Assembly: GCA_965287045.1 (NCBI GenBank)
Contig: OZ336895.1
Coordinates: 24,118,001-24,182,000, forward strand
Length of the DNA stretch: 64,000 nucleotides
Direction of reading: 5' to 3'
Source of the DNA: Carcharhinus amblyrhynchos
Taxonomy: Eukaryota
The first letter of the stretch is position 1, and each line of letters opens with the position of its first letter. The position numbers and the translations under genes were made by a program. Below are positions 1 to 63,749 of the stretch, piece by piece. The notes beneath the pieces were generated by a model. It saw only the letters and a list, made by a program, of their open reading frames with translations, was not told the origin of the DNA and searched no databases.

Positions 1-53
1 TCCCTCCTCCAGATCATTTTAATAATTTAATTTTAATATTTTAATAATGACAG

Positions 54-6000: not shown

Positions 6001-8053
6001 GTCATTTATTATACATGGGGTTTTGAGAAAAATTACAACACAAATATGAAGTCAAATCATTGTAATAATTGTCTAGCCTTTTCAATCTCCTCAATAACAA
6101 TGAACACTTTATTTAATCCCAACAGCATCAGAATCGACAGCAAATGCACCGACTTCCACCGCAGCATCAACATCACCATCAGCACCTACCTCACGAAGTA
6201 CAATAGCACCAACATCTACAGCAAGCTCCACTGAATCACCCACACCTGAAGCACCAATAATAACAACATCAATCCCTTCAACAAGTGGTGAGTATGAGTG
6301 CTCCCTACTCAGTTGTAACATTCTGAACACTTCCACAGATTACAATTAGAGCAACTTAATGAAATTTAAAAAAAATAATATATTCAGAGTAGAATAATGT
6401 GTAAATGCCATATATTGTTACTTGCTTCGCAAGATTACATTGGATAGTTACACTGTATATTAGACAAAGAATGCATGTTATCAGGTATAATGTTTGGCAT
6501 TATGTCATTTCTGTCATTTTGTGTAACTCTTTATGCCTGTCATTTTACTAACTGCAGCATCAGAACAGTCAGCTGCAAACATACAGACATCCAATGCAGC
6601 ACAAACCACTACATCAGCTGCTGCCTCAACAAGTACAATTGCATCAACAACTACACAGAGCTCAACAGAAGCATCAACAACTGCAGAAGCATCAATCACA
6701 ACATCGCTCCCTTCAACAAGTAGTGAGTATATGAATGCCATCTTATCAATTTTAACATCTCTATTCAATCTGTTAGCTCCAAGTGTCGAAACAACTAGTT
6801 CAACGTAACAAAATTAATTACCAAGTAGAATAATGTGCAGATGAGATTTGCTCATTTGACTTTTCTTAACATGCCTGGTTTACATTACAATATTAAAGCT
6901 TTCACTGCGACACGATGTCAATGTATGAGTGCACATTACCTAATTGTAGCATTCTGAACTCTTGCACTGAGTGCAATTAGGAACACATAATCAAAATGAA
7001 CAAAATAATACAGCATAATGTTGGATACAAATATTCAAAGTAGAATAATTTACAAGTGCCAGGCTTTGATAACTGTTTGCAAAATTACATTAGGTAGTTT
7101 CACTGTACATCAGATGACGAAGCTGGATTATCAGATATGAAGTTAGCACGTTGTTTCAGTCATTTTGCAGCCGTCTTTAAGCCTGTCACCTATTCTAATA
7201 ACTACAGCAACAGAACAGTCGACTGCAAACATTGAGCCATTCAGTACAACACAAACCACAATAGCAGCTTCTCCCTCAACAAGTACAATTGCATTGACAA
7301 CTACACTGAGTTCGACAGAAGCATCGACAACTGCAGAAGCATCAATCACAACGTCCATCCCTTCAACAAGTAGTGAGTATACGAGGGCTCTCTTATCAGT
7401 CTTAACATTTCTATTCATTCCATTAACTCCAGGTATAGAAACAATTAATTGAATATAACAAGGAAGCAACAAGTAGAATAATGTGCAGATGAAATTTGCT
7501 CATTAGAGTTTTCTTAACATGACTTCCGTACATTAAAATAATAAAAATTTTACTTCACTGCGGCGCAGTGGCAATGTGTGAGTGCTCGCTACATATTTGT
7601 AGCAGTCTGAATTTTTCCACCGACTGCAACTATAAACACTCAGAATTGAAGTTTCATAAAATAATTCAGCATCATGTTTGCTATGCATTTGTATTATCAT
7701 AGGATTAATGATATGTAAAAGAGCTCTAAAGCTGTCACAATTCCAGGACATTTTATCCTGCTTACTATCATTCATTATACATGGGGTTTTGACAAACACT
7801 ACAACACAAATATGAAGTGAAATCATTGATATGCTGGTCAATCCTTTTCATGTCCCTCATTAACAATAAATATTGTTTTTAATCACAGCAGCGTCAGAAT
7901 CGACAGCAAATGAACTGACCTCCACCGCAGCACCAACATCACCATCAGCACCTACCTCACCAAGTACAATAGCACCAACATCTACAGCAAGCTCCACTGA
8001 GTCATCCACACCTGAAGCAACGACAATAACAACATCAATCCCTTCAACAAGTG
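54..8053 (+). CDS. PTS mucin cassette exons 1-15 (order A B A C A B A C A C A C A A C)
   Basis: Exons 54-218, 487-651, 900-1064, 1796-1957, 2249-2413, 2683-2847, 3312-3473, 3977-4141, 4412-4558, 5078-5239, 5513-5677, 6126-6287, 6558-6722, 7208-7372, 7889-8053. Each follows an AG and ends at R|GTGAG; lengths 147-165 nt, all multiples of 3, phase 1-1. Confidence 0.85.
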
Positions 8054-29000: not shown

Positions 29001-32000
29001 GCTGGTCAGTACACCATTCTTCTTATCAGGGGCACCATTCCCATTCCTTTAATTCCACTGGGATTTTAGAATCACAAAAAAGCAACAGATAAGAGTTACC
29101 GCTGACTACCAATGCACAGAAAAGAATAATGTTCAAATGACATCTGGTATTGTGCAGTCTTTGCCAATGGAGCCAATACAGTTATAGTGTGAACTTTTTA
29201 TTTAGTTTTTATTTATTATTGTCTCAATTAGGCCGACATGCACACTGCAATGAAGTTACTATGAAAATCCCCTAGTCGCCACATTCCAGCACCTGTTCAG
29301 ATACACTGAGAGAATTATGCATGGCCAATGCACCAGCCAGCATGTCTTTCAGAATATGGGATGAAACCAGAGGAAGCCCATTCAAATATGGGGAGAACAT
29401 GCAGACTCCGCACAAACAATAACCAAAGCTGGGAATCAAACCTGGGTTGCTGGTGTTGGAAGGCAGCAGTGCTAACCATTGTGTCACTGTGCCATCCATG
29501 GCACTTAGGTTACTTAGTACAAATACAATGTCTCAAAAATCCAACATTGGAATTTAAATTTATGACAAGCAGTGTATATTTCTTGTTTATTATATCCTGA
29601 TTTTTTGAGGATTTTTCAATCTGATTTCCTGCACATAGACACTTGAGATCCTCTATAGAGGGCTCCATAGTTAGAATGACAGAGGATGGGTAGAAATGTC
29701 TGCTGAGAAGTTCACTAAAGGTCTGTGGGAAACAATGCTGGAAGTGAGCTTTCAAAGTTGTTCCTTTGCCACTCCTAGCAAAACTTTGAACGAAAGATTA
29801 TAATCTTTCCTTGAATAGATATAAATTTTTTGACTTCTCTTTGCATTGCGTCTTGTTATTTTATAGTGGAACCTACCATCGTGCCTGTAACAGTCAATCC
29901 AAATCAAGGAACAAAGCCAAAAGAATTTAATGTAACCTTCACCGTGCTCAACCTGCCATTCACACCAAATCTACAAAATCTCACTTCAGCGTTGTACACG
30001 ACTGAATCGAGGAACATTGGTGACAAGGCAAGTCTGCTATCTGTGTCAGTTGAGAAGGAAATATTCTATTCCATTGCATGATCATACTAAAATGCAACAA
30101 TTTATTTTCTACAGCTCAATAATCTGTATGCCAGCAGCAACGTTAGAGTGGCATTCCTGAGTTGTCAGTCTGTATCATTCAGGTAAGAAATTAACAATTA
30201 CTCTGAAAGATTTATTATGTAAAATAACCATGACTTTTAACGGGCATCTTGACAAATACATGAAAAGGATGTGAATAGAGGGAAGTGTAGGGGGTTTTAG
30301 TTCAATCAGACAGCATGGTCAGTGCAGGCTTGGAGGGCCAAAGGGCCTGTTCCCGTGCTGTAATTTCCATTGCACTTTGTTCTTTGTATAATCAAAATAG
30401 GGTTAGAAAATGAATTTCTCAATGTTACAACCTGCCTCACAAACTGAAAGCTACTCAAATTACTGTAAATGTGGAACTCTGATTTGCTTCCTACCTCTTG
30501 GATTCTAAGAAGTGACTTTAACTTAGTAATTAAAAAACGTACTTGTGGATACATGTGTTGCAATATCCTCTTTTAGGTAATTGCAATTCTCCTGAAATAT
30601 TACAGCAGGCACAAACACAGAGTTTGATAGATCGAAGCCAATACACTTATTAACAGACTTGCTGATTGGTATCTTGTTCAAGACAACAATAAAGGAACAG
30701 AAATTAGGATTGAAATTCTCTGCACCCTCCCTTGGAGTGGGCTAGCAGTGAGAGACAAAATATTGGGAGACATATGGCAGTAGCAGACCGAGTATTAGTG
30801 CACCCGCTTGCTTGTAAACTAATTGAGGCCCTTAATTTGCCAAGTAATTGGCTCATAAGGGGCTGTTCTCACCACTGCTCATATTTTACCAAAGGCAGGG
30901 TTGCCCAGGGCACCCTGTAAACAATGGAGCTGCCATCACCATTTCCCTCCCACAAGTAACTCCCCTCTAGCACTATGTGCTCCCCCCAATACTCCCCCTA
31001 AGCAATCTTCAAATCCGCCCCTTCCCCACTCACTGGGTCTAGCCTGGATAGCCAAAGTAAAATATGTAGCTGCACATCTGGCTCTAAGGCTCCTCTTGAA
31101 GGGTAGCTGTCTGTGGTCCTAATGGCAATGATTACTTCTTGTGACATTGCTGGGAATGGAGGACCGCTGCCATCTTATTAGCCAACAGCTGTCAAAGGGA
31201 GGCTTCAGGTTCAACAGTGGCTATGGTTCCACCTGAGACAAAATGCTAGGTGGCTGACTGTAAAATTGGCTTTGCTGAGCTGGCCAGATGGAGATGGGAC
31301 AACACTGATTTTTAAACTGGGCAGGCAGGCCCACCGCCTCCTGATAAAATTGCCTCGTATCAATCATAATAGTTTGCTGTTTGTGCTTAAGATGTTAAAG
31401 TAGCGGGTACACAGGATTTTGACTCAACTAATGCTGTTGAGGGATGCACTTGTAAATGATTGGAAAGTAATGGGGGTCACATCTTCTCCCAATGCTTTAT
31501 CTATTGTGACAGAGAGGTGGACAAGTAAGCTGAATCTACAGGAAGGCTTCAGCAATTATCCATTGACTTGGGTCACATTCCAAATGCAGCTCCTCCACTA
31601 AACTGGCATTGAGCTCTGGAGCAAATCACCTGCCATTGAATAAGCTTAGTCTTCTCATAACATACAGAATTGTGCAATATTCCTCACTGTCTTTCCAAAT
31701 ACCATGCAATGTACCAACATTTGAGGCATTATAATTATTTTGATGGATGCAGGAATCTGTACGGCAAATAATTTAAACAGAAACATCACTTTCTAATGTT
31801 GAAAGCTAGTGGTCTGTAATTTTCAGGGTTTATGATGACAGTAAGTCAGCTTTCACCATTTCCCCCTCTGTGAACCTGAACACGACTTCAAAATTTAATG
31901 CAATCGTTGATTAATGGGGAAATGAGCAAGTTGCTGCCCCAGAACAGGGTTAAATCAGTCTGCTCTGTGCATTGAAGAACCCTGTGATCCCACATCCCCA

Positions 32001-35000: not shown

Positions 35001-38000
35001 TTCCTACCAATTCCACCTTGTTAAAAATGCTACGTAATAAAATGAAATATATTCCTGGATTAAATACGAAATGATTTGTGTAGAAAAATATCATACACAA
35101 CTGTAATTTTGATCATATTCCCCAGATTATAAAAAGATTTGTCAGTGGATGATAATGTAGGATTTTCGTGACTAAATGTTAAACATTGACAATGAAAACT
35201 TTTTAACAGAAAGGTTAAACCATTCAAAATTAATCTGTTTTAAAACCTCTACTAAAATATCAGAGATTGCAGGTATTGAAGAAAAAGGGAATAGAGGAAT
35301 ATCAGAGTCAAGCAGAAAGAAGTAAGCAATGAGGAGAAATTTGTTTGGAGTATAAAAACTGCATAGACCAGTTAGGCTGAATTGGATGCTGCTGCTCCAT
35401 ACATTTGGTTTGAAATATCCAAATTTTGAGCAATCAGTGCAAAACAGTGTTGACAGTAAATGTTACTGAATGTCATCAAGGTGCATGTGTCAGTGTGAGT
35501 ATAGTGAATGAGCACCAGAAGCATGAAGAGTAAGCAGATAACAACATTCATTAGCATGCAACACTGATTTGACCATGACTCTGCCATTTTGGAGCACAAT
35601 GCTTCAGCCAATGTGCTCTAGTGCTCTTAAACTCACACAGCTTATTATTTCACTCAATAACAATGTACATCCATTTCAAACACAGCAGCAGAAACATTGA
35701 CAGCCAACACACAGACCTCCGTGGCAACACTGACTTCAACTACAGCTCCCGTTTCAACAAGTACAACAGCACTAATTGCAACAGTGAGCTCCAGTAAAGC
35801 ATCTACAACTGAAGCAACAACACACGCAACCTCAATCTCTTCAACAAGTGGTGAATATGAATGCCTTCTTGTGAATTGTGCTGTTCTCATTCATTTTAAA
35901 TCCGTGACAATTTCAGAAATACATCATGTAACAAAGCACTGTAGTATGAATTAGGTAACAATTACACAGGTAGAATATTATCCAAAAGACATTTGGTGAA
36001 TAATATTTGCAACATAGTTATGTTACATTATATCTAAGATGGTGACTTTGGCAATAAATGTTTGGATGTTCCATCTATTTTGTATACCTCATGAAGTCTC
36101 AAACCTACTTTAATAACAGCAACAACAGAGACTTATACTGCAAAGACACAGCCATTCACTGCAACACCAACCTCAACATCAGCTGTTGCTTCAACAAGAA
36201 CAACAGCATCAACAACTACAGTGATCTTGACTGAAGCATCAACAATGGAACTAACAACAACCTCAACATCAAACACTTCAATAGCCGGTCAGTACACAAT
36301 TCTTTCTATCGGGGTACCATTCCCATTCCTTTAATTCTACTGGGATTCTAGAATCACTAAAAAGTAACAACAAATAAGGGTTAATGCTGACTACCATTGC
36401 ACAGAGTAGAATGTTCAAATGACGTCTGGTATTGTGCAATCTTTCCCAGTTGAGCCAAAACAGAGTTATAGTGTAAACTTTTTATTTATTACTGTCTGAA
36501 TTAGGCCTACATTCACACTGGAATGAAGTTTCTATGAAAATCCCCTAGTCACCACATTCCAGCACCTGTTCAGGTATTCTGAGGGAGAATTTAGCATGGC
36601 CAATGCAGCTAACCAGCATGTCTTTCAGAATGTGGGATGAAACCAGCAGAAGCCCATTCAAGTACACAGAGAACGTACAAATTCTGCACAAATAGTGACT
36701 CAAGCAGGAATCAAACCTGGGTCCCTGGTGTTGGAAGGCAACAATGCTAACCATTGTGTCACCGTGCCATTCATGGCACTTGGGTTACTTAGTACAAATA
36801 CAATGTCTCAAACTGAGAACCTCTGAATTTAAATTTATGACAAGCAGTGTATATTTCCTGTTTATTACATCCTGATTTGGCTTTTTTGGGGATTTTTCAA
36901 TCTGATTCCCTAATCATAGACACCTGAGATCCTCTGTAGATTCCAGACTGACAGAGGATGAGTAGAAATGTCTGATGAGAAGTTCACTAAAGGTCTGTGG
37001 GAAACAATGCTGGAAGTGAGCTTTCAAAGTTGCTCCTTCGCCACTCCTAGCAAAACTTAGATCAAAAGATTACAATCCTTCCTTGACTAGATATAAATTT
37101 TTTGACCTCTCTCTGCATTGTGTCTTGTTATTTTATAGTGGAACCCACCATCGTGCCTGTAACAGTCAATCCAAATCAAGGAACAAAGCCAAAAGAATTT
37201 AATGTAACCTTCACCGTGCTCAACCTGCCATTCACACCAAATCTACAAAATCTCACTTCAGCGTTGTACACGACTGAATCGAGGAACATTGGTGACAAGG
37301 CAAGTCTGCTATCTGTGTCAGTTGAGAAGGAAATATTCTATTCCATCGCATGATCATACTAAAATGCAACAATTTATTTTCTACAGCTCAATAATCTGTA
37401 TGCCAGCAGCAACGTTAGAGTGGCATTCCTGAGTTGTCAGTCTGTATCATTCAGGTAAGAAATTAACAATTACTCTGAAAGTTCCAAGTCAAACTGCATA
37501 TGTTGAAAGTGACCTGGATTTATTATGTAAAATAACCATGACTTTTAACGGGCATTTTGACCAATACATGAAAAGGATGTGAATAGAGGGAAGGGTAAAG
37601 GGTTTTAATTTAGTCAGGCAGCATGGTCAGTGCAGGCTTGGAGGGCCAAAGGGCCTGTTCCCATGCTGTAATTTCCATTGCACTTTGTTCTTTGTATAAT
37701 CAAAATAGGGTTAGAAAATGAATTTCTCAATGTTACAACCTGCCTCACAAACTGAAAGCTACTCAAATTACCGTAAATGTGGAACTCTGATTTGCTTCCT
37801 ACATCTTGGATTCTAAGAAGTGACTTTAACTTTAATTTAAAAACATACCTGTGGATACACATGATGCAACGTCCTCTTTTAGGTGATAGCAATTCTCCTG
37901 AAATATTACGGCAGGCACAAACACAGAGTTTGATTGATCGAAGCCAATATACTTATCAACAGACTTGCCGATTGGTATCTTGTTCAAGACAACAATAAAG

Positions 38001-53000: not shown

Positions 53001-56000
53001 AATCTCCTGTTTTGCCCGATGCGGGAATTGTAGCGGGTGAGACAGGAAATTTCGTGGATCATTTAAAGCTCGGGTGGGAATTTCCGGTCTTGGGGCACGT
53101 GCGCCAGTCCTTTTCTTCTTTAATTGCTTGTTGCACATCTGAAACTGTGAACCAGTAATGGTTCAACTAAATGTTGTTTGCTTCCTCTTGCAACCCGAAT
53201 TCTTGAGATGAGGAATTTTAATATGCCAACGCTAAATGTGTATGTAACTAGAATAGGAACAGCAGATGCTGCTGACAACCAGACCTGCAACCACAATCTG
53301 ACATTCCATGGTTGAATTTTACACTCTCCCAGCAGCAGATGTGAAGGCATGGGGTGTGTAGCCTTCCCATAGCGTAGCCTTTCCTTAGGGAAGGGTAGGC
53401 GACACATTGGGAGATTTCCTCCTTTGGTCCTATTGAATACCTTTAGTGGCCAATGAATCGACACATCATGTCCTCGTCCTGTTCTCACTGGTACTTTACA
53501 ACAAAACAGGAAGAGACCCATGCCATGCAGGATGTCTCAGCAATATTAACTGCGTAGGCTCATGTCAGACAAGGGTGTGAACCATCTTCTGGACGTCTTC
53601 TGCACCCCCAAACTAATGTCATTGCTTCCTCCCCCTTCTCTTTTAACCCTCTTGTCTGGTCTCTTGAATCTGTCCCCCTCTGCCCCTGCCTCGCATTGCC
53701 AAGACTCCTACCTCTGGACTTACCTATGGTCACTTAGTTTGTGATGGGTTTGCCTTTAGTTCCATAAGTGATATTGCTCACAGCTGGCACTGAATGGACT
53801 ACAGAGTTACTGGCCATTAGATTGTTTCCAGCATTAGTTTGCTGTGGGTGTCTGATGCCCTAAAAAATCCAGCCCTATATCACCGCTAACCACTGCGCCA
53901 CTATGCTGCCCTGTATATTTTGGCTCACATCACATGGTGTTAATACAGTTGCTGTATTCTCAGTCTGACATTTTCTTTTTGTCTCCCATTAGCAAAACCA
54001 CCATCTGTGACAACACAAGCTTCAAGTCCGGGAGTGAAGTCCATTGAATTCAATGTAACCTTTGTTATCACTGACTTAGAGTTCACACAAAGCCTACTAG
54101 ATTCCAGTTCTTTGCTGTACAAATCTGCATCAAAAATTATTTCTCACCAGGTAACCATATTGTTTATACTATCATACAAAAAATGATTCCTTTCCAGAAA
54201 AGATAGTGCTGTGATAATGATTAAAGAGACATTGATAGGATGCAAGACTGGGCGAAGAAGTGGCAGATGGACTTCAACCCAGATAAGTGTGTGATGATTC
54301 ATTTTGGCAGGTCAAATAGTATGATAGATTCTAATATTAAGGATAAGACTCTTGGCAGTTTGGAAGATCAGAAGGATCTTGGGGTCCGGGTTCATAGGAC
54401 TCTCAAAGCAGATTTGCAGGTAGCGGCTGTGGTTAAGAAGGCGTATGGTGTACTGGCATTCATCAAACGAGGAATTGAGTTTAGGAGCCAGGAAATAACG
54501 CTGCAGCTGAAGACCCTGGTCAGACTCCACTTGGAGTATTGTGCTCAGTTCTGGTTGCCTCATTACAGAAAGGATGTGGAAGCCTTAGAAAGGGTGCAGA
54601 GGAGATTTACAAGGATGTTGCCTGGATTTGGTGGTATGCCTTATGAGGATAGGTTGAGAGAGCTCGGTCTTTTATCCTTAGAGAGACGAAGGATGAGAGG
54701 GGACCTGATAGAGGTGTATAAGGTGAGAGGTATTGATCGAGTGGATTCTCAGAGGATTTTTCCCAGGGCTGAAATGGTTGCCACAAGAGGACACAGGTTT
54801 AGGATGTTGGGGAGTAGGTACAGAGGAGATATCAGGGATAAGTTTTTCAGTCAGAGGGTGATGGGTGCATGGAATCGGTTGCCAGCAGTGGTGGTAGAGG
54901 TGGACTTGATAGGGTCTTTTCAGAGACTTTTGGATAAGTACATGGAACTTAGTAAGATAGAGGGTTATAGGTATGCCTAGTAGGAAGGGACATGTTCGGC
55001 GCAACTTGTGGGCCGAAGGGCCTGTTTGTGCGGTAGCTTTTCTATGTTTCTAAAGAAAATTATTAATAAAATGATTTTAGCAATCATTGTGATCACCTTT
55101 CTCAAACACTGTGTTTGTGAATTTATTGCAGCTCACTGCCCTGTACGACAAGAGCAAAATTAGTGCCAAATTTTCAAGCTGCAAGGTTGTTTCCTTCAGG
55201 TGAGGATATTACACTGTTGCAAGATGCACTGCAGCAAGTCACTAAGGCTCCTTGAACAACACGTTCCAAACCTCAAGATCCACTATCTAGAAATATAAGG
55301 CTGATAGGCATCTGGGAACATCACCAGTTACTTGCAAGTCCCAGTCCAAGTCGCGCATTATTCTGACTTGGAAATATACTTCATGTTCCTTCACTGTAAC
55401 CAGTCAAAATCCTGGAACTCCCTCTCTACCATAGATGTACCTGCTCCACATGAACTGCAGTGGTTCAAGAAGGCAGCTGACCACCAGCTTCTCTTGAGCA
55501 ATTAGAGATGGATATTACATACTGGAGTTGCCAGTGATGCCCACATTTCATGAATGAATAAAGAAATAAAAATATCAAACTGCTTATGAATATCAATTAT
55601 AAATATAAATCAGCATCGTAGAAGGCTAAGTAATTAGTCATTTGTTGAACCATATAAAGAGGTTTAAAATTGCTAAAGCTTTACAATGTGCCAATCATAG
55701 AGAAACGCTGAATGAATGGTTTGCATATCATTGAATATTGGCCAATGCTTTTATTTCATAGAATCCATAGAACCCCTGCAGGGCAAAAAGAGGCCCTTCA
55801 GTCCATCAAATATACACTGACTCTCTGACAGCATCTTAGCCAGGCCCTATTCCCGTAACCCAACCTATTTACCTCACTAATCCCCCAACCTACACATCTT
55901 TGAACACAAGGGGGCAGTTTAGCATGGCCAATCTACCTAATCTGCTCATTTTTGGAGTGTGGGAGGAAACTGGCACACCTGGAGGAAACCCACGCAGACA

Positions 56001-59000
56001 CAGAGAGAACATGCAAATTCCACACAGTCACCTGAGGCCAGAATCTAACCCAGGTTCCATCGTGTCACTCTTATTTCTTATTTGTTTTATAGTAGTGTGT
56101 TTCAGTCACCATTATTATTACATCAGAATGGCTTTTGAAATTGTAGACATACAGCTAATTTCCTTTCATCTTTTCTTCTCTAATCTCTTTGACATTTGTT
56201 ATACACTGGTACTCAGTGATGGAGAGCAGGCATGATACTTAATGTCAGGGGAGCTAGCAGGGTAAATCCATGGGGTCACTTAGATCGGATAGAACTTAGG
56301 TGGGATTGTTGTCAGTGCTGGCTCAATGGACTAAATGGCCTCCTTCTGCACTGTAGAGATTCTACAATTCTACTATGCAATGGAGAGCAGATGCAGTCTT
56401 TTGAAAACAATGATTGATTCAACTTGGATTTATTTACTGGGGAAGGGGATCATTGCAATTTCAGTGAATCAAATGCCTTCTTCCATCAAAAATCAGTCAA
56501 TTGCATGATTAGTCACGGAGACCACTTCAGGTTGCGCATACACAACAATAACATGTACTTTCAATTTTAGTATACTATATTTGTGGTTCACAATCCTCCA
56601 CAATAAAGAGACCAAATGCAAATTGTGTGACTGCTTTGCAGAACACCTCTGTTCACCCTGAAAGTGTGACCCTGCCAGGCAGGTTGCCTGTCATTTTAAT
56701 TGATCCTCCCAGTCTGTCCTCACCCTCCTACACTCTCCTAAAGGTGTCATGCCATCTGATTCACTTTCTGTATGTCTTTTGTTTTTACAGCCCAGCTAAC
56801 GGTGATGACACCAGTGTGTATGCAGTCTGTACTTTCACTAATGATTCTGCAGCTGATAAAGTCACTGTGTACCATGTGTTCAGAGACAACACGGAGAACA
56901 TCACCACTTTAGGAATATATTTACTGGATAATGACAGCCTCTATGTAAATGGTATTTAGCATTTTGAATTAGATACTTTGAGCAGTCAGATTTTATTTCA
57001 ACAGTGTGAATGAGTTAATAACTTACTTATGGGCAAGATGAGGGTTCATTTAAGCAGCACTGAATTCCTCTCTCATCACCCAGCCCTAAATAGAAAAGAG
57101 TTTTGATTTCTTTCCTGCTTTATGGGCAGTAGCATATTTTCTCCCCCTCATTTATGTTTGATTTCATTTTCTGTTAAAAACCCCACAGCAAATTTAAGAC
57201 AGGATGAACTCAAAGGGTTAGTTTATTTGCATGCACTCAAAACAGATTCCAGAGTCCTGAATTAAAGACCAATGAGGCATCCCTCATGGAGTTCAGCAGA
57301 CTGAAAAAAACAATGCTGTATAATTCATGTTTTTACTGGTGCTGACTTCACAAGATGAGGTGGACATACTCAGAGATGGGGGTGATGGAGAATTTCCAGC
57401 AGAAGCAGTGTAGATGGAACCAGGTATTCCATATGGGCAGAGCTCCTTACCTGTGAGGCCACTGGTAAATTGACAAATAGCAGACCGAGTTCTTCGGCTC
57501 AGCAAGGCAATATTAACTTATTCAACAAGCCAGAGAGTGATACCACCCTCACTTCTCTACCCAATGTCCAACAAAGGATGTGTATCAATTGTTTAGAATG
57601 TAGCTAGGTTTCAAAAGTTGCTAAATATCTCATCCATTACAAATTGAAAGAGAGGTTATTGGGCCTTTTGACTGAGCAGATCATCAGTCCCCTTCTGGCT
57701 AGCCTTGGTTATCAAATGCTGATGGTCTTTTTGAAGTCAGGCTGTGCAGTCCACACTTGGTCGTGAGCGACTCCTCAGAGATAATGAGGTGCAAGGTTTC
57801 CTGAAACTGCAGATAGGACTTCTTTAGTTCAGGGATCATAGACATTGGTTCAGACATTTTGAGGCTCTTGTTCAGTTTTAAAGTTTAAGAGCTATAAGAA
57901 TGTCTATATATTTTTTATAGAAGTATATAAGGTGAGGTCTTAGTCTCTCACAATATCCACCTTGAAATGAAAGAACTAAAGCTCTGAATTTCACTCTTTA
58001 ATGATGGGTTTCCACTGGGCTCATCACATACAAAACATATGCTATTGATTTTTCAGGTTACCATGAATCAGCCCTTTCACCAAGTGAGTATTGTTTCCAC
58101 TTTCTTTCCTTATAATTTTCTTTTATTACAAGCTGAATAGTCACATGACACCAGGTTATAGTCCAACAGGTTTATTTGAAATCACAAACTTTCGCAGTGT
58201 TGTTCCTTCATCAGGTGAAGTTCACCTGATGAAGGAGCAGCACTCTGTAAGCTTGTGATTTCAAATAGACCTGTTGGACTATAACCTGGTGTCATGTCAT
58301 AGAATCATAGACTCCTACAATGCAGACGGAGGCCATTCAGCCCATCGAGTTGGCACCGAACACAATCCCACCCAGGCCCTACCCCAATAACCCCATGCAT
58401 TTAACCAAGCTCACCCCCCTGACACTAAGGAGCAATTTAGCATGGCCAATCCACCTAACCCACACATCTTTGGAGTGTGGGAGGAAATCAGAGCACCCAG
58501 AGGAAACCCATGGAGACATGGTGGGGGGAGAGAATGTGAAAGTGCAAACTCCACACAGACAGTGACTCAAGCTAGGAATTGAACTCGGTTCCATGGCACT
58601 GTGAGGTAGCAGTGCTAACCACTATGCCACCGTTCTGCCCTGTGATCTCTCATCTTGTTCACCCCAGTCCAACACTGGCATCTCCACATATTTTATTTTA
58701 TTACAGTGTAGAGTAGAAAAATAGACTCCACATTAATTTCCCCAGGTTATTGGGGGGTGGGGTTAATGTTTCCCAGTTACAAACGATGCATCATTTTAAT
58801 TTCTGTTGAGAAACATTTTGAAGGTTTTAAAAGGGATTCAGGACTGAATTTCCAAATCTTGTTGTGGTGGGGGAATGGAAATGGATTTCAGGCCCCAGGA
58901 TTATACTGCTGGTTGGCAAACTGGTTTCCCAAATCAATACCCGTCATCGGCTGTTTTGGCCAACACAGTTCTGGAGGTCAGCAAAATATACTCACCGCTA

Positions 59001-62000
59001 TGAGATGACCAGGCAGCCAGGCTCATTACTGGCCTTATTAACCAAAAATTAAGAACACCTCCTGGGATTTTACAGCTGGCCTCCTGTTTCTCAATGTGAC
59101 AGGAAACAGTTTAACCGCTTGGAGATGGGTACTTAGCAGTAGGCTGGGGTGCCAGCTTTTCACATAGGGTCGATAGAGCCTCCCCTTGTAGCTGTGTGAG
59201 CGTGTATCATTGAATCCTACAGTGCAGAAGAGGCTATTTGGCCCATCAAGCCTGCACCGACTCTGTTACAGATTATCTTACTCAAACTCTTTCCCCTGCC
59301 CTAACCCCGAAACCCCAAGTATTTACCTCCATTAATCTCCCTAACCTGCACATCTTGGGACACTAAGGGGAAATTTAACATGGCCAATCGACCTAACCTG
59401 CACATCTTTGGACTGTGGGAGGAAACCAGAGCAGACATGGGGATAACTTGTAGGTTTTTCCACAGACAGTGACCTGAGGCTGAAATTGAACCCGGGTCCC
59501 TGGAGCTGTGAAACAGCAGTACTAACCACTGTGCTACCGTGCTGCCAATTCTGTGTCAAGGTGCAAACTCATCAGTTAATTTGCAATGGGCTGTGAGTGG
59601 GGTAGTGGGGGTGCAGTGGACAAGAGTCCACCTTAGGCACTGATTCACTGTCATTGAACAATTGTGTGTAGTTGATGAGTGATTGGAAGCTATAGATGGT
59701 CCTATACCAATATTAAAGTAGATAAATGGGAACCGGAGAAGAGAAAAAGACAAATGAAAGGAAAATGCCTCCTAATGTCATCAACAAACTTGGATATACA
59801 GGTTTTAACTCACTTGCCCAAGTCACCAGTTTGTGAAAAGCTGAGGCACCAGTCGATGCCCTCAGGGACACTACAGGTTACATCTTGTCAAAATGAGCAC
59901 AAACCTATTATCTGTCTCCTACCTCCTCACTAATTATCTATCCATTTCAATGGGTCACCTCCAATTAAATGCTGTCCTATTTTTGCTAACAGTCTCCTGT
60001 GTGAAACCTTCTTGGTATCCTTCTGGAAGTCCATATAAATAACATCCATTTGCAGACTCTTATCTAACACTTTAATTACCATCCTAAAAGGTGAACTAAC
60101 TGATCGATACTTAAGCTGCGAACAAGAGCAGGGACTAGTCCTGTACTCGCATTTAGACCTGCAACCCAAGATCAAAACAAGCAGAAGACTCCAAGTCAAT
60201 AAGACACTCAACAATCAGGACTATTTCTTGCAGAAATAAGAAACAGCTGCATGTTCAGTGGAGGAAAAGTTTGCATCTAATTGTGCATGTGATAGAACAA
60301 GGATGTTGGATAGTCCTTTGAAAGAATGGTCTCACTAAGCCTTGTAAAGTTGAGCTCAATGTTGTTAGTTCAAACTGCGATGGTTCCATATCTTAGATAT
60401 AGTTTGTCCTGCTGTTTTTAATACAAATGATGCAATTACAGAGATCTTTGATTCTCAATTTTAATGCATTTTTGTCTCTCTGAATAGCGATACCACCACC
60501 TGTGACAACTCCAAAACTGCAAACAAAGCCTTATGAATTTAATGTGACTTTCATTATTACCAACCTGGCCCCAGCAGCAAACTTGCAGTCCCCTAATTCT
60601 GCACTGCACAAATCCGCATCAAATATCATTGCTTATCAGGTCAGTCAACAACTTAATTATCAATATGTGTTTTAATTAGTTTATGGCATTTGTCTCTAAA
60701 AGTGTGATTGTTATTTTTCTTCAGTTGAACCATCTATTTACTAACAGCAATATCAAGAGAACATTCCAAAACTGTAGGGTTCGCACTTTCAGGTAAGGAA
60801 TGTTGATGTTCAACCTCAGTATTTGTTTCAAGGTCACTTGAATGTTTAGTAAATTAGTTAACATTACGTAAATGTAAAATGGTAAAATGTTCTAGTAATC
60901 TTGATCGTTGTCTCTATGATCAGGCCAGAGTTGGCACTACCAGGCTGGCACTGCCAAATGGGTAATTCCCAGACACGTACCCAACCACTGGAGGTTTCTA
61001 TGGCTTCCGATCCCCCTGTCCTGGGGCGGGGGGGGGCATCGTGCCTGGTCTCCATTTGTGGAGACCATTAGTGATTCAGACCAGGCTCCTGCTATGCCAG
61101 AGGGTCGGAAAATCCCGGGAACAGGGAAAATCCGGTCTTGAATGGACTCAGCAGGCTACGTTCTCTGACCTTGCATGCAGTTGGAAATCTCTAGTCCCAC
61201 TGCAGAGAGTGAAGATTTGGCTGAGCGCCAAATTCTCTTTTCTCATTTAAAGGGGGTGGGGGAGGGGGGGTTGGTGGTGGGGGCGTGATGAATGGCTGGA
61301 AAATTCCAGGCTGCACAATTACATTCTCACATTATCTGATCTTGCCCTTATTGGGTGGGGACCAAATTATGTCCGAGAATGGTGTGTGAGGTTTCACGCT
61401 GATACAGACCATTCTAAGCCAGTCCACCCATAATTTTCCAGCTCTATTCCAACTCATTCTGCCACTGGCATGACGTAGACAGAAAGTCGCAGACTATGAC
61501 TAGGAACAATTTTGCACCCATATAGTCTTCATCTTTATGAATAGAATAAATATGGTTCTGGAAACATGGGAAAAACTGTGTGGCTGTTCTGTAAATATCA
61601 ACAAATTGACACAATTGAAAATTAATATACCATTTTAACTAATTAAAAATACTCTGGATTGAGAAATTTCAATGTATACAAGAGAGAATTAATATGATTA
61701 AATTCCATTAATTTTAAACCTTACAATGTTAACACACAACTGCTGTACATTTTAGATATGGCACATTGTTCAGTTTAGTTTATTTATTAGTGCCACAAGT
61801 AGGCTTATGTCAACATTGCAATGAAGTTACTGTGAAAATCCCCCCTTCGCCACACTCCAGTGCCTGTTCGGGTACACTGGGGAAGAATTTAACATGGCCA
61901 ATGCATCTAACAGCGTGTCTTTCGGACTGTGGGAGAAAACCGGAACACCAGGAGGAAATCCATGGAGACACATGGAGAAGGTGCAGACTCCACACAGACA

Positions 62001-63749
62001 GCAACCCAAGCGGGAATCGAACCTGGGCCTCTGGGCACTGTGAGGCAGCAATGCTAAACACTGTGCCACCATGTCACCCATATTGCACATCTTCAGTCCC
62101 AGTACTTTGAAACATTTGCTCATGCACCCATGCAATCTCACCAGCCATTCATGCTCAGCTAAATCTCGTTCACTGCAAGGAGACCAGAAAATCCCACCAG
62201 TGTGAACGGCTGTAAGATTCTGCTGTAGGGCTCTTACCAGAGTTTCAGATATGTTTTCTGACTCACTTTTCTGTACGTGTGTTTATTTCACAGCCCGGCA
62301 ACTGTTGAGGGCACCAGTGTTGATGCTGTCTGCACTTTCAGCAATGATTCTAATCCTCAGGAAGTTAATAAAGTGACTGTGTACCATGTGTTCAGAGACA
62401 ACACAAAGAGCATCTCCACCTTGGGAATATATTCACTGGACAATAACAGCCTCTACGTGAATGGTATTTAGCATTTAAAGGAGATTGCTTATCTTGTCAC
62501 TTTTATTCTATCAACACAGTGCATTAATCTGATAACATTGACAATGATTAAACCAAATTTGTGAATTTTATCTCACAGTTTAATAACTTTCCACCCGACC
62601 TCATTGATACAAAACACATCTTTCATTTTTCAGGTTACCACGAATCTATCCCTTCAACCAGTGAGTATAATTTGATATTTGTATTTCTTTAACATTTCCT
62701 TTTATCACAATGGATAAAATTAAGGGAATTCTTACCTTAGCCTGGTTTATGCATTGTCAAACATATTTAGGATGTTTCCCATTTAAGGCTACGTTTCTTT
62801 TTTATTTCAATAAAGAATTTATTTCCACCCTTGGAATTGAAAATCTTTGAAGTTTCAACCAAAGATCCTGTATGTAATGTGACATCCTAGCCAGAAGTCT
62901 GTGGTCTTGTATACCCCGCTACTGCTGCCAAGCGATAATTTGGCACTTAGTCAAGTCACCATTCACAGCAGCAGAACTGGATAATCCCAACCTCAGGTGA
63001 GGTCAGAGAATTCTGGTTTCTGTCTCCTTATGTGAGTCCAATAAATGGACTGTTGCTGTGAGCAACTAGAAAAGGAGCAGTAGTCCGTACTTAGAATACC
63101 AGTCTGTATTTACACATAGCCCTAATTTAAAAAAGCAGGAGAATCCAAGTTAGTAAGAGCTTCAACAAAACCAGGACAAATTTTTTATATAGATGAGAAA
63201 ACGGTTGCAAGATCATCGGGTTTTATAAGCTTTTGCCCAATTGCATACGTGACAGCAGATATTACTACATAGTCCTTTGAATGAATGGCATCACCAAATC
63301 TGAAAAAGAAACTTAACTCCAGCTTCAACTATTCTGAAATCATTCCATATTTTTCATTTACTTTGTCTCACTGTCATTAATGCAAATGATGCAGTCGCAG
63401 TGGTGTTTAATTCTCAAATTTTAATGCATTTTTTCTCTCTGAATAGCGATAGCGTCACCTGTGACAACTCCAAAGCTGCAAACAAAACCCTTTGAGTTTA
63501 ATGTAACTTTTATAATTACCAACCTGGCCCCAACAGCAAACTTGCAGTCCCCAAATTCTGTACTGCACAAATCCGCATCAGCAATCATTGCCTATCAGGT
63601 CAGTCAACAACTTACTTATTAATACATTTTTAAAATTACACCATATTTGGCTCTAACAGTGTGATTGTTACTTTTCTTCAGTTGAACGGAGTTTTTACTA
63701 GCAGCAAGATCAAAAGAACATTCCAAAACTGTAGAGTTCGCTCTTTCAG
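54..63749 (+). CDS. MUC16: Internal part of a very large multi-exon mucin-16 (CA125)-like gene: Thr/Ser-rich cassette exons followed by tandem MUC16-type SEA modules; 5' and 3' ends outside window
   Basis: 82 candidate exons with AG acceptors and GT (three GC) donors join in phase. SEA modules carry FNVTF, a Cys pair and LGxYxLDxxxLYVNG-Y, resembling human MUC16 repeats (LNFTITNL...GCRLTLLR...DAIC...LGPYTLDRNSLYVNGF). Mucin/SEA identity is strong; orthology to MUC16 is inferred from recalled sequence, not from a search. Confidence 0.8.
8344..18310 (+). CDS. PTS mucin cassette exons 16-35 (A B A C A B A B A C A B A B A C A B A B)
   Basis: Exons 8344-8508, 8777-8941, 9195-9359, 10079-10240, 10531-10695, 10962-11126, 11380-11544, 11801-11950, 12480-12644, 13167-13331, 13829-13984, 14228-14392, 14637-14801, 15050-15214, 15754-15918, 16447-16611, 16898-17059, 17300-17464, 17707-17871, 18146-18310. 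Same splice signals and phase as exons 1-15. Confidence 0.85.
13435..13634 (+). mobile_element. 5'-truncated shark tRNA-derived SINE (HE1-like) with TTCTATGA tail
   Basis: GTCCAAAGAAGTGCGGGTTAGGTTGATTGGCCATGCTAA...CTGCACTGTAGGGTTCTATGATTCTATGATTC; absent from paralogous introns such as 19770. Confidence 0.8.
18843..26722 (+). CDS. PTS mucin cassette exons 36-50 (A C A B A B A C A C A A B C A)
   Basis: Exons 18843-19007, 19519-19683, 19974-20141, 20382-20528, 20771-20935, 21211-21375, 21908-22069, 22578-22739, 23031-23195, 23636-23800, 24073-24237, 24723-24869, 25127-25288, 25906-26070, 26558-26722. All multiples of 3. Confidence 0.85.
25358..25390 (+). pseudogene. Remnant 3' end of an A-type exon with a dead donor
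   Basis: ATCCCTCCCTTCAACAAGCA followed by ATGAGT instead of GTGAGT; no acceptor or exon body upstream. Confidence 0.7.
26246..26435 (+). mobile_element. 5'-truncated SINE of the same family
   Basis: Same body and tail as 13435-13634; interrupts the conserved TTTGCAAGATTACATTAGAT intron motif. Confidence 0.8.
27097..27165 (+). mobile_element. Isolated 3' tail of the second SINE subfamily
   Basis: GATTTTCACAGTAACTTCATTGCAGTGTTAATGTAAGC...CTAATAAGTAAAC, the tail also seen at 48755-48805 and reversed at about 29205 and 61771. Confidence 0.7.
27345..27420 (+). pseudogene. Decayed 5' part of a SEA first exon
   Basis: TTTATAATGGCACCCCCAGTGTACCTGCAACAGTCAATCAAAATCAG aligns to TTTATAGTGGAACCTACCATCGTGCCTGTAACAGTCAATCCAAATCAAG (29860-29908) with the acceptor AG changed to AA. 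Confidence 0.55.
27497..27805 (+). mobile_element. Full-length tRNA-derived SINE
   Basis: Head TGGCACAGTTGTTAGCACTGCTGCCTCA with an A-box-like motif; tail GGATTCTATGATTCTA. Confidence 0.8.
27971..28170 (-). mobile_element. Partial, degraded SINE
   Basis: Reverse complement of SINE tail and body (CATAGGATTCC...CAGCCCATCGA...GGGCAATTTTAGCATAGCC). Confidence 0.6.
28269..29004 (+). CDS. Thr/Ser-rich exons D (28269-28433) and E (28837-29004) of PTS-SEA unit 1
   Basis: Phase 1-1, 165 and 168 nt, donors GTGAGT and GTCAGT; encode ...TTEATTRATSIPSTS and ...TETLTAKTQPFTATPTS... Confidence 0.8.
29205..29495 (-). mobile_element. SINE, second-tail subfamily
   Basis: CACTGCAATGAAGTTACTATGAAAATCCCC...GCAGCAGTGCTAACCATTGTGTCACTGTGCC; duplicated at 36481-36770. 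Confidence 0.8.
29867..33974 (+). CDS. SEA module 1 (exons 29867-30027, 30115-30182, 32395-32561, 33948-33974)
   Basis: 161+68+167+27 nt splice in frame: EFNVTFTVLNLPF...GDK|LNNLYASSNVRVAFLSCQSVSFR|PAIDGNSTVEAIC...LGTYSLDSNKLYVNG|YHESAALT. First donor is GC (AAG|GCAAGT). Confidence 0.9.
30240..30385 (+). mobile_element. CR1-type LINE 3' UTR fragment (paralogue about 37550-37695)
   Basis: GACAAATACATGAAAAGGATG...GGCTTGGAGGGCCAAAGGGCCTGTTCCCGTGCTGTA resembles the 3' end of the CR1 copy at 54930-55030. Confidence 0.6.
32725..33590 (+). mobile_element. Old decayed CR1/L2-clade LINE 3' part (paralogue about 40310-41695, there split by a younger CR1)
   Basis: GGGATGGTCGCTGATGAT (FADD-like RT motif; ATGTTCGCTGATGAT in the paralogue) and KAQVRSV..Y, IQDKAA remnants in ORF 33028-33225. 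Confidence 0.65.
33991..34127 (-). mobile_element. Penelope-like (pLTR) fragment with degenerate hammerhead core and 12-bp TSD (paralogue about 42099-42235)
   Basis: Flanked by GTATGATAACTA at 33979-33990 and 34128-34139; minus strand reads CTGAACTA-GAGTC-ACTTG-GACTC-AAAA. Confidence 0.55.
34351..34685 (+). mobile_element. SacSINE1/DeuSINE-like ancient SINE
   Basis: GTGGGTCAGTTGGTGGCA head, GACACTCCAGTGGAGTGCTGCACTGTTGGAG core and AAAGTGCTTTGGGA...AAAGGTGCTGTACGAATGCAA tail match my recollection of this family. Confidence 0.6.
35686..36287 (+). CDS. Thr/Ser-rich exons D (35686-35850) and E (36120-36287) of unit 2
   Basis: Paralogues of the unit 1 exons, 165 and 168 nt; D donor is GTGAAT. 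Confidence 0.78.
36481..36770 (-). mobile_element. SINE, second-tail subfamily (segmental duplicate of 29205-29495)
   Basis: Same sequence at the same position in unit 2. Confidence 0.8.
37139..42082 (+). CDS. SEA module 2 (exons 37139-37299, 37387-37454, 39980-40146, 42056-42082)
   Basis: 161+68+167+27 nt, nearly identical to module 1; GC donor at 37300. Confidence 0.9.
39084..39895 (-). mobile_element. Young 5'-truncated CR1 LINE (RT C-terminus and 3' UTR)
   Basis: Unbroken ORF 39195-39830 (RDLGVLV...LYRALVRPQLEYCVQFWAPH...RMRGDLIETYK...FFTQRVVNLWNSLP); tail (GTTCTTAT)n on the minus strand; absent from unit 1. Confidence 0.93.
40458..40985 (-). mobile_element. 5'-truncated CR1 LINE of the same family
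   Basis: Similar to 39100-39610; ORF 40551-40733 FFTQRVVNLWNSLP; GTTCA on both sides is a possible TSD; absent from unit 1. Confidence 0.9.
42461..42800 (+). mobile_element. SacSINE1/DeuSINE-like SINE (duplicate of 34351-34685)
   Basis: Paralogous sequence in unit 2. Confidence 0.6.
43806..44407 (+). CDS. Thr/Ser-rich exons D (43806-43970) and E (44240-44407) of unit 3
   Basis: 165 and 168 nt, phase 1-1, paralogous to units 1 and 2. Confidence 0.8.
44813..45130 (-). mobile_element. SINE (TTCTATGA-tail subfamily)
   Basis: TCATAGACTCCCTACAGTGCAGAAG...CAGCAGTGCCAACCACTGTGC. Confidence 0.8.
45138..45438 (+). mobile_element. SINE (TTCTATGA-tail subfamily), head-to-head with the previous copy
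   Basis: GGCACAGTGGCACACTGGTTAGCAGTGCTGCCTCACAGCGCTAGGGACCCGGGTTCAATTCC (A and B boxes)...GGATTCTATGA. Confidence 0.85.
47018..49060 (+). CDS. SEA module 3 (exons 47018-47178, 47267-47334, 47593-47762, 49034-49060)
   Basis: 161+68+170+27 nt; LNNLYANSNVNATFSDCKSVSFR|PASNGDSTVEVIC...LDNDSLFVNG|YHESSVST; GC donor at 47179. Confidence 0.9.
48180..48805 (+). mobile_element. Nested SINEs: inner copy 48356-48704 inside an outer second-tail SINE
   Basis: Outer element breaks at GCCATGCTAAAT and resumes TAAATTCTCCCTCAGTGTACCCG; TAAAT is duplicated at 48351-48355 and 48705-48709. Confidence 0.85.
49629..49702. repeat. 36-bp tandem duplication in an intron
   Basis: CAGATGAATCAGAACAATCATATTATTCTTTGTGGC followed by CAGATGAATCAGAACAGTCACATTATTTTTCGTGGC. 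Confidence 0.8.
50514..52912 (+). CDS. SEA module 4 (exons 50514-50674, 50813-50880, 52581-52750, 52886-52912)
   Basis: 161+68+170+27 nt; EFNVTFVITDL...SHQ|LTDLYNKSKVNARFSGCRTTSFK|LADIANTRVFAIC...LDSNSLYVNG|YNKQTPLP. Confidence 0.9.
51528..51837 (+). mobile_element. Rex1/Babar-like LINE 3' end
   Basis: Translates as IIKDPSHPEHSLFHPLPSGQRYKS...TNQLKNSFFPAAVRLLN, then a 3' UTR, AATAATAAA and an (ATCAA)3 tail. Confidence 0.7.
53993..58083 (+). CDS. SEA module 5 (exons 53993-54150, 55132-55199, 56791-56951, 58057-58083)
   Basis: 158+68+161+27 nt; LTALYDKSKISAKFSSCKVVSFS|PANGDDTSVYAVC...LDNDSLYVNG|YHESALSP. Confidence 0.9.
54221..55033 (+). mobile_element. 5'-truncated CR1 LINE (different subfamily)
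   Basis: ORF 54240-54980 (WAKKWQMDFNPDKC...KDLGVRV...LEYCAQFWLPH...RMRGDLIEVYK); tail TTTCTATGTTTCTA. Confidence 0.92.
55225..55560 (+). mobile_element. Old LINE 3' UTR remnant related to 33290-33590
   Basis: Shares GGCTCCTT...TTCCAAACC...TGGGAACA...GTTCCTTCA...CTGCAGTGGTTCAAGAAGGCAGCT...GCAATTAGAGA. Confidence 0.55.
55758..56060 (-). mobile_element. SINE
   Basis: CATAGAATCCATAGAACCCCTGCAG...GGAGGAAACCCACGCAGACACAGAGAGAACATGCAAA. Confidence 0.8.
56245..56375 (+). mobile_element. SINE 3' fragment
   Basis: GGTGGGATTGTTGTCAGTGC...AATGGCCTCCTTCTGCACTGTAGAGATTCTAC. Confidence 0.65.
58143..58690. mobile_element. Palindromic Penelope-like element with two inverted degenerate hammerhead cores (58143-58297), interrupted by a minus-strand SINE (58298-58640)
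   Basis: ACATGACACCAGGTTATAGTCCAACAGG...CCTGTTGGACTATAACCTGGTGTCATGT inverted repeat; CTGATGA on both strands; element resumes as CCCCAGTCCAACACTGGCATCTCCACAT after the SINE. Confidence 0.7.
59208..59546 (-). mobile_element. SINE with internal duplication of CTAACCTGCACATCTT
   Basis: GAATCCTACAGTGCAGAAG...CAGCAGTACTAACCACTGTGCTACCGTGCTGCC. Confidence 0.8.
59900..60112 (-). mobile_element. Decayed CR1 reverse transcriptase fragment
   Basis: ORF 59930-60214 contains DVIYMDFQKDTKKVSHRRLLAKI...LKWIDN, resembling the CR1 motif DxxYxDFxKAFDKVPH. Confidence 0.7.
60488..62660 (+). CDS. SEA module 6 (exons 60488-60639, 60725-60792, 62294-62463, 62634-62660)
   Basis: 152+68+170+27 nt; EFNVTFIITNL...AYQ|LNHLFTNSNIKRTFQNCRVRTFS|PATVEGTSVDAVC...LDNNSLYVNG|YHESIPST. 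Confidence 0.9.
61771..62078 (-). mobile_element. SINE, second-tail subfamily
   Basis: GTTTATTTATTAGTGCCACAAGTAGGCTTA...GGCAGCAATGCTAAACACTGTGCCACCATG. Confidence 0.85.
63447..63749 (+). CDS. SEA module 7, first two exons (63447-63598, 63682-63749); continues beyond window
   Basis: 152+68 nt, close paralogue of module 6. Confidence 0.88.

What the first reader, a model, noticed from the sequence alone, without database searches (positions are those of the whole stretch)
29867..63749. MUC16/CA125-type SEA repeats with human-like intron positions in a probable cartilaginous fish
Seen: seven modules, each with a 68-nt phase 0-2 second exon and an FNVT sequon. The six complete ones have two Cys 18 residues apart in the modules I counted, an exon ending L(Y/F)VNG and a 27-nt linker exon; there is no GSVVV autoproteolysis motif. 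Known (from memory): human MUC16 156-aa repeats use five exons, including one for LKPLFKNTSVGPLYSGCRLTLLR and one ending LDRNSLYVNG, with a 19-residue Cys loop. Inference: the MUC16 SEA module and its exon structure predate the shark/bony vertebrate split, with a lineage-specific expansion here.
Basis: partly seen in the sequence, partly recalled or inferred. Interest (0 to 1): 0.7.

Follow-up and report, generated by a model that had tools for sequence, protein, structure and literature searches.

The report
Shark MUC16 with 300 exons
This stretch is the rear part of a shark version of MUC16, the cell-surface mucin behind the cancer marker CA125; its gene likely splices some 250 to 295 short, interchangeable exons into a giant, probably sugar-coated stalk, while a sister gene next door is predicted to build its stalk from one long exon.

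Summary
Seven SEA modules have 68-nt phase 0-2 second exons, FNVT sequons, Cys pairs 18 residues apart and 27-nt linkers. They belong to a true shark MUC16 co-orthologue, by PDB ranking, trees, TM/tail and the neighbours ACTL9, an ADAMTS and a myosin-I. NCBI already labels such genes "mucin-16-like". The intron argument is weak, because this shark's MUC1 has the same three SEA intron phases.

(1) The gene has a predicted 300 exons and 15,490 aa (344 exons and 17,831 aa from an upstream duplicate promoter). Of these, 251-295 are ~165-nt phase 1-1 Ser/Thr exons under frame selection.
(2) It is the last of three tandem paralogues. One has a single 13.5-kb PTS exon, another has 90 cassette exons.
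(3) It ends in a GSV-type SEA, TM and tail. Fish, amphibian and lamprey relatives end the same way; amniotes added one more SEA.
(4) The 18-residue loop looks ancestral, and 19 is sarcopterygian.

Splicing and expression are untested. The scan noted a smaller cassette-exon stalk before, in a bamboo shark.

The parts
54..26722 (+). 50 Ser/Thr-rich (PTS) cassette exons, mostly 165 nt, phase 1-1; the 3' end of an array that begins about 106 kb (internal start) or 147 kb (upstream start) before the window
28269..29004 (+). Two PTS exons in front of SEA module 1; part of a ~7.3-kb duplicated unit [PTS, PTS, SEA]
29867..33974 (+). Type-A SEA module 1: exons 29867-30027 (GC donor), 30115-30182, 32395-32561, linker 33948-33974
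35686..36287 (+). Two PTS exons in front of module 2
37139..42082 (+). Type-A SEA module 2: 37139-37299 (GC donor), 37387-37454, 39980-40146, 42056-42082; near-identical to module 1, introns about 87% identical
43806..44407 (+). Two PTS exons in front of module 3
47018..49060 (+). Type-A SEA module 3: 47018-47178 (GC donor), 47267-47334, 47593-47762, 49034-49060
50514..52912 (+). Type-A SEA module 4: 50514-50674, 50813-50880, 52581-52750, 52886-52912
53993..58083 (+). Type-A SEA module 5: 53993-54150, 55132-55199, 56791-56951, 58057-58083
60488..62660 (+). Type-A SEA module 6: 60488-60639, 60725-60792, 62294-62463, 62634-62660
63447..63749 (+). Type-A SEA module 7, first two exons (63447-63598, 63682-63749). 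The gene continues beyond the window end (contig C26 24,183,588-24,209,766): rest of module 7, type-A modules 8-11, a terminal type-B SEA with GSVKC, a TM exon and a tail exon with the stop

Best explanation
The window holds the rear part of a shark MUC16 co-orthologue, the last of three tandem paralogues, predicted to encode a type-I membrane mucin of about 15,500 residues whose long, likely O-glycosylated stalk would be spliced together from about 250 short symmetric exons. Order of parts: signal peptide, PTS stalk, 11 type-A (CA125-type) SEA modules, one type-B SEA with a GSV motif, TM helix, 30-residue tail with Tyr. Shown in the DNA: exons, phases, an open frame, paralogues, neighbours. 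Inferred from the family: it likely sits on an apical epithelial surface as a micrometre-scale barrier, with the SEA string as a stiff N-glycosylated, disulphide-looped spacer, and is shed by cleavage near the membrane. Inferred from sequence: stalk and SEA string likely grew by unequal crossing-over of whole exon-plus-intron units, which phase 1-1 boundaries allow without breaking the frame. The same symmetry would let exon skipping tune stalk length (untested).
For: Gene model with 300 exons, 15,490 aa and 0 internal stops from an intact signal-peptide exon at C26:24,004,375. 295 of 301 PTS repeat copies are intact exons, Ser+Thr 55%. In nearest-copy pairs, 75 of 79 exon indels but 66 of 331 intron indels are multiples of 3; about 13 stops were expected without selection and none lies in the 295. 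PDB: Mucin-16 chains at E 4e-17 to 5e-11 for the Mustelus orthologue, next hit 0.5. For a basking-shark paralogue: E 6e-19 to 1.5e-17, against TMPRSS 4e-4, MUC1 0.03, agrin 0.55. Its predicted fold matches human SEA5 (TM-score 0.90, rmsd 1.6 A). Trees: type-A SEA of jawed vertebrates 99.9/100; C-terminus MUC16 against MUC1 100/100. TM and tail align with lungfish, toad, turtle, lizard and colugo MUC16, not with MUC1. Synteny: two ACTL9-clade genes 35-45 kb downstream (100/98), an ADAMTS at 24.86 Mb, a myosin-I at 25.05 Mb, DOT1L on the same contig. Chicken chr28 has MUC16, ACTL9, ZAP70, ADAMTS10, MYO1F in that order, and DOT1L (PMC4558091 table).
Against: No transcript evidence was available, so inclusion of all PTS exons in one mRNA is unproven. 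The exon finder required frame-preserving exons, which makes the indel and stop tests partly circular. Nearest copies were picked by exon similarity, which biases the exon/intron divergence (5.6% against 15.0%). dN/dS is about 0.84, so amino-acid sequence is barely constrained. ADAMTS and myosin-I were identified to Pfam family only. The antizyme (OAZ1) expected upstream from chicken was not found on C26. The upstream neighbour found is GBA, which in human and mouse lies beside MUC1. Tree outgroups were only MUC1 and one teleost SEA-repeat protein. The fold was predicted for a paralogue from another shark, not for this protein.
Confidence: 0.8

Rival explanations
1. MUC16 orthologue, but the PTS array is a reservoir of alternative cassettes; each mRNA includes only a subset, so the 15,000-residue form is rare or absent.
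For: All exons are symmetric, with polypyrimidine tracts interrupted by A residues. The NCBI model of the neighbouring paralogue in Mustelus has only about 1,200 N-terminal residues (P0021) where this genome has 90 exons and 4,799 aa, though such models are often truncated. Length control by splicing was proposed for chicken Muc13 (PMC1552070).
Against: Donors are uniformly strong (gtgagt in 261 of 295). No mutually exclusive layout is visible. No RNA data either way.
Confidence: 0.3
2. The upstream 44 PTS exons with their own signal-peptide exon (C26:23,964,435) are a separate orphan partial duplicate (secreted PTS-only mucin or pseudogene), not part of this gene.
For: Promoter, exon 1 and intron 1 are duplicated at about 75-86% identity. 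The last exon of that block has a LINE fragment in its donor site, and no SEA or TM sequence lies in the 16.5-kb gap.
Against: Its 44 exons are intact and in phase, and could splice past the internal exon 1 into the main array, giving 17,831 aa without a stop.
Confidence: 0.5
3. A convergent multi-SEA mucin (for example a MUC1 offshoot), named mucin-16-like only because it has many SEA domains.
For: Multi-SEA architecture also arose in MUC1 (axolotl protein with 13 SEA hits). Intron phases are shared with MUC1. GBA lies 110 kb upstream of the cluster.
Against: Trees, tail sequence and ACTL9 synteny all point to MUC16. The shark has a separate MUC1 on contig C85, 58 kb from a thrombospondin. 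In other sharks GBA lies on contigs of different length from those with mucin-16-like genes.
Confidence: 0.03
4. The size of the array is inflated by mis-assembly.
For: Tandem arrays are hard to assemble, and copy number could not be checked with long reads.
Against: Copies are divergent (median nearest-copy identity 94.8%; 3 of 246 pairs identical). The region has no N. Contigs from two runs of related organisms cover 30 of 30 bins of window 1-12000 (shows presence, not number).
Confidence: 0.07

Closest known systems
Human MUC16 / CA125
   Same: Large N-terminal Ser/Thr domain, tandem SEA repeats with two conserved Cys, one GSVVV-type SEA near the membrane (DSVLV in human, PMC4456727), TM and short Tyr-bearing tail; linkage to ACTL9 and ADAMTS10 (within 500 kb of one SNP, PMC9936313 table).
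   Different: Human repeat: 156 aa, five exons, 19-residue loop; amino domain of 12,068 aa in 9 exons (PMC3431878, PMC10829539). Shark: 135-141 aa, four exons, 18-residue loop, 251-295 PTS exons; the GSV-type SEA is last, not penultimate; three paralogues.
NCBI 'mucin-16-like' models of sharks, rays and chimaera (e.g. Mustelus asterias, Rhincodon, Pristis, Callorhinchus)
   Same: Same modules and same ending (type-A repeats, type-B SEA, TM); 96% identity in one exon to Mustelus; a 53-57 aa PTS period in five models.
   Different: Those models look like fragments (159-3,694 aa among the ones retrieved); none is long enough to hold the full exon array, and the N-termini I printed showed no matching signal peptide.
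Chicken Muc13 (PTS encoded one repeat per exon; PMC1552070)
   Same: One PTS repeat per exon; possible length control by splicing.
   Different: At least 12 repeats of 20 aa against about 250-295 of 55 aa here; different family (single SEA).
MUC1
   Same: Same three SEA intron phases; a GSV-type SEA directly before the TM; nearest named non-MUC16 family in the library search.
   Different: Different tail and TM signature; no type-A C-loop SEA; separate locus in this shark (C85), with one 2.8-kb PTS exon.

Membership tests
MUC16 family | Many tandem SEA domains | tested here: met
   11 type-A plus 1 type-B in this gene; Pfam SEA on single exons
MUC16 family | Two conserved Cys forming a loop in each repeat SEA | tested here: met
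   11 of 11 modules, 18 residues between; 18 also dominates in bichir and paddlefish, 19 in lungfish, coelacanth and tetrapods. The disulphide itself is not shown.
MUC16 family | SEA sequence groups with MUC16 rather than other SEA families | tested here: met
   99.9/100 clade; PDB ranking over TMPRSS, MUC1 and agrin. Agrin, IMPG and MUC3/13/17 were not in the trees.
MUC16 family | One GSVVV/DSVLV-type SEA near the membrane | tested here: met
   Terminal SEA with GSVKC groups with the amniote penultimate SEA (type-B clade 95.1/92)
MUC16 family | Single TM and short MUC16-type cytoplasmic tail | tested here: met
MUC16 family | Signal peptide and very large N-terminal Ser/Thr/Pro domain | tested here: met
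   Predicted: hydrophobic 70-nt first exon and 13,735-16,076 aa of PTS exons
MUC16 family | Conserved locus beside ACTL9, ADAMTS10, MYO1F | tested here: met
   ACTL9 by tree; ADAMTS and myosin-I to family level only; chicken order from PMC4558091
MUC16 family | SEA intron positions equal to those of mammalian MUC16 | tested here: inconclusive
   No mammalian genomic DNA available. Truncated bony-vertebrate models end at the shark junction columns in 16 of 29 cases. The pattern is shared with MUC1, so it is not diagnostic.
MUC16 family | Expression on epithelia, O-glycosylation, shedding | not testable with these tools
   Needs RNA and protein work
Human-type CA125 repeat (156 aa, five exons, 19-residue loop) | 156-aa unit from five exons with 19 residues between the Cys | tested here: not met
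   135-141 aa, four exons, 18 residues against PMC3431878 and PMC10829539
MUC1 | MUC1-type TM and long tail; locus beside THBS3 | tested here: not met
   Tail alignment; a separate MUC1 on C85

The most novel reading that the evidence does not exclude
A shark MUC16 gene with 300-344 coding exons makes a 15,500-17,800-residue surface mucin whose stalk length is tuned by skipping symmetric exons and by two promoters, beside a sister paralogue with a human-style giant PTS exon. The family goes back to the first vertebrates as a MUC1-like 'GSV-SEA, TM' protein: jawed vertebrates added the CA125-type module, sarcopterygians lengthened its Cys loop by one residue, and amniotes capped the cleavable SEA with an extra module.
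Probability: 0.35. Interest if true: 0.7.

Novelty: new variant of a known kind. Interest (0 to 1): 0.5.

Why it matters
The papers I could read place MUC16 in mammals and chicken, and list none in pufferfish (PMC1552070). A syntenic shark orthologue and a lamprey relative give a natural comparison for three open points on CA125: which SEA features are ancient, whether the GSV-type SEA was the original cleavage site next to the membrane, and why human cleavage maps to the juxtamembrane residues instead (PMC4456727). Three adjacent paralogues with 1, 90 and about 250-295 PTS exons make the one-exon versus many-exon design of mucin stalks, and the idea of length control by splicing, testable within one locus. 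The plain fact that sharks have mucin-16-like genes is already in NCBI annotation.

Tried and rejected
GBA as evidence that MUC1 and MUC16 are genome-duplication sisters: the only GH30 gene found in this genome lies 110 kb upstream of the cluster. But in other sharks GBA is mostly on 4.6-22 Mb contigs (46 kb in Mustelus), while their mucin-16-like genes are on 35-150 Mb contigs. It is more likely a local translocation or an assembly join, so I did not use it as support.

Intron phases as an MUC16 signature: rejected after the MUC1 control.

RNA: no RNA holder listed.

Neighbour search: a Pfam scan of the 150 longest of 340 non-repeat open frames downstream found only two reverse-transcriptase fragments. 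The ACTL9 genes were missed there because my repeat mask removed the pair; they were found. The matching upstream list was not scanned. The antizyme search gave one hit, on C6. The genome-wide Pfam SEA search gave only 2 matches among 101 candidates, too insensitive for split exons.

A first PTS count (130 of 306) used a faulty donor score and was replaced.

Supports printed along the re-rooting path are shifted; I use the split values. The binomial p-values for breakpoint clustering are not relied on, because the windows were chosen after looking and the rows are not independent.

PMC9007846 was not held. No complex prediction was run, since no binding is claimed.

Full report
Observation. 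Each has a first exon of 152-161 nt (phase 1-0), a 68-nt second exon (phase 0-2), a third exon of 161-170 nt (phase 2-1) and a 27-nt linker (phase 1-1). Spliced in a script, they give 135-141 aa units without stops, each with two Cys 18 residues apart. Modules 1-3 use a GC donor after the first exon. Each of these three is preceded by two Ser/Thr exons; modules 1 and 2 are copies of a ~7.3-kb unit whose introns are about 87% identical. Single exons hit Pfam SEA and Mucin-16 structures.

Whole gene. The window is G000:C26:24,118,001-24,182,000 in a 2.9-Gb genome. Downstream lie four more type-A modules, then a different SEA (type B, with GSVKC), a TM exon and a 30-residue tail. Upstream lies an array of 301 repeat copies, of which 295 are intact phase 1-1 exons (192 of them 165 nt; Thr 30%, Ser 25%; median intron 271 nt; 56 inside the window). 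By eye, the other six fail at the donor or by an insertion. A hydrophobic 70-nt first exon occurs twice, at 23,964,435 and, inside a 16.5-kb gap of the array, at 24,004,375; promoter and first intron are duplicated with it. From the internal start the model has 300 exons and 15,490 aa; from the upstream start 344 exons and 17,831 aa; neither has an internal stop.

Selection on the array. Among 246 nearest-copy pairs, 75 of 79 exon indels but 66 of 331 intron indels keep the frame; dN/dS is about 0.84. That fits selection on frame and composition rather than on sequence, with the caveat that my finder demanded in-frame exons. Contigs from two runs of related organisms cover all 30 bins of window 1-12000. 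No RNA evidence was available.

Three paralogues. The same strand carries two more genes upstream. Beta has 90 of 90 intact PTS exons (4,799 aa) and 10 SEA domains. Alpha has about ten SEA domains and a single 13,455-nt exon coding 4,484 Pro/Thr/Ser/Asn-rich residues. In a tree of the C-terminal 180 columns (29 rows), alpha forms a clade with catshark, sawfish and skate proteins (100/100), and all chondrichthyan copies group together (96.6/81). The three genes are therefore co-orthologues of bony-vertebrate MUC16, and alpha split before sharks and rays did.

Identity. The closest protein is a Mustelus asterias 'mucin-16-like' (96% over one exon); all 17 hits of that search carry that name and are chondrichthyan. 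PDB searches rank Mucin-16 far above TMPRSS, MUC1 and agrin. A model of a basking-shark paralogue overlays human SEA5 at TM-score 0.90. In a tree of 76 SEA domains (six from this gene, the rest chosen from 16 named proteins), the type-A domains of jawed vertebrates form a clade (99.9/100), and type-B domains including the amniote penultimate SEA form another (95.1/92). Colugo repeats (99.8/100), amniote repeats (96.9/99) and chondrichthyan modules (86.4/94) each cluster by lineage. Outgroups were only MUC1 and one sea-bream protein.

Synteny. Two intronless ACTL9-clade genes follow 35-45 kb downstream, then an ADAMTS and a myosin-I on the same strand. This matches the chicken chr28 order read from a table in PMC4558091. 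Against this: ADAMTS and myosin were not resolved to paralogue, antizyme was not found on C26, and GBA lies upstream, probably by a local move or join.

Intron claim. I had no mammalian genomic DNA. Indirectly, truncated models (known shark proteins left out) end within two 3-column windows at the shark junctions in 16 of 29 cases and start there in 14 of 49; five such models looked up are hamster, panda, bat, manatee and Tasmanian devil, one is tuatara. That the human repeat has five exons comes from PMC3431878; its exact junctions are recalled, not checked. The control matters more: this shark's MUC1 on C85 has the same phases, with a 74-nt middle exon. The pattern is thus older than MUC16 and does not identify it.

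Evolution of the C-terminus. Named chondrichthyan, paddlefish, sturgeon, bichir, reedfish, lungfish and toad proteins end type-A repeats, type B, TM; the coelacanth model ends at type B, truncated. Named turtle, lizard and colugo proteins end type A, type B, type A, TM. Five unnamed mammal-like proteins were labelled all type A, probably because my shark-built profile missed their divergent type B. The Cys spacing is 18 in about 124 of 128 chondrichthyan type-A domains and in most bichir and paddlefish domains, and 19 in most lungfish, coelacanth and tetrapod domains. Lamprey proteins named 'mucin-2-like' and 'mucin-5AC-like' have the type-B SEA, TM and MUC16-type tail and fall on the MUC16 side against MUC1 (100/100). 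Their repeats lie outside the type-A clade, and lamprey synteny is untested.

Mechanism. Shown: exon structure, open frame, domain order, paralogues, neighbours. Inferred from the family: an apical, heavily O-glycosylated barrier mucin that is shed near the membrane. Whether the GSV-type SEA self-cleaves is open. In human, the DSVLV site was not found cleaved and cleavage needed only 12 juxtamembrane residues (PMC4456727). Inferred from sequence: growth by unequal crossing-over of exon-intron units. Untested: length control by exon skipping, as proposed for chicken Muc13 (PMC1552070).

Literature. Ten searches, with MUC16 plus shark, cartilaginous fish, lamprey, evolution or exon structure, listed no paper on shark or lamprey MUC16; most subscription papers are not in this library. 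I saw passages of PMC1552070, PMC4456727, PMC3431878, PMC4046138, PMC4948705, PMC1464143, PMC8220141, PMC4558091 and PMC9936313, and passages plus section 22 of PMC10829539. Duraisamy 2006, O'Brien 2001 and Maeda 2004 I saw only as cited by others. No supplements were read.

Verdict. A real, ordinary-family gene with an unusual build: new variant of a known kind, interest 0.5.

Noticed in passing
G000:C26:23,764,750-23,778,204 (L045-L047): Paralogue alpha has one 13,455-nt open exon (4,484 aa), with Lys/Glu/Asn/Ser repeats at its start and Pro/Thr/Ser repeats after.
   Followed up: partly
G000:C26:24,244,712 and 24,254,231 (L007, L008): Two tandem intronless ACTL9-clade genes; databases call shark copies 'actin-like' or 'actin-5-like'.
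   Followed up: yes
G000:C26:23,633,000-23,647,000 (L074-L075), minus strand: The only GBA found in this genome sits next to the MUC16 cluster, unlike in other sharks; translocation or assembly join.
   Followed up: partly
G000:C85:373,600-385,900 (L081-L082): A shark MUC1: 2.8-kb PTS exon of 9-residue repeats with an Asn sequon, one SEA with a GSV motif, TM and tail, 58 kb from a thrombospondin.
   Followed up: partly
window 30027, 37299, 47178: GC-AG introns after the first exon of modules 1-3, inherited through module duplication.
   Followed up: no
Proteins P0043, P0044, P0034, P0023 (N-terminal regions): Mammal-type MUC16 N-terminal domains show a weak 28/56-residue period (identity 0.15-0.19 against 0.105-0.12 at other lags), close to the 55-residue shark exon unit; may be coincidence.
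   Followed up: partly
Proteins P0110, P0141, P0146: MUC1-type proteins of axolotl and gecko carry several SEA domains (13 hits in axolotl), so multi-SEA architecture is not unique to MUC16.
   Followed up: no
G000:C26:23,790,000-23,791,300 (L048): A duplicated SEA third exon in paralogue alpha, the second copy apparently frameshifted.
   Followed up: no
window 39080-39900, 40460-40980, 54220-55000: Decayed LINE (CR1-like) fragments and many SINE copies in the introns.
   Followed up: no
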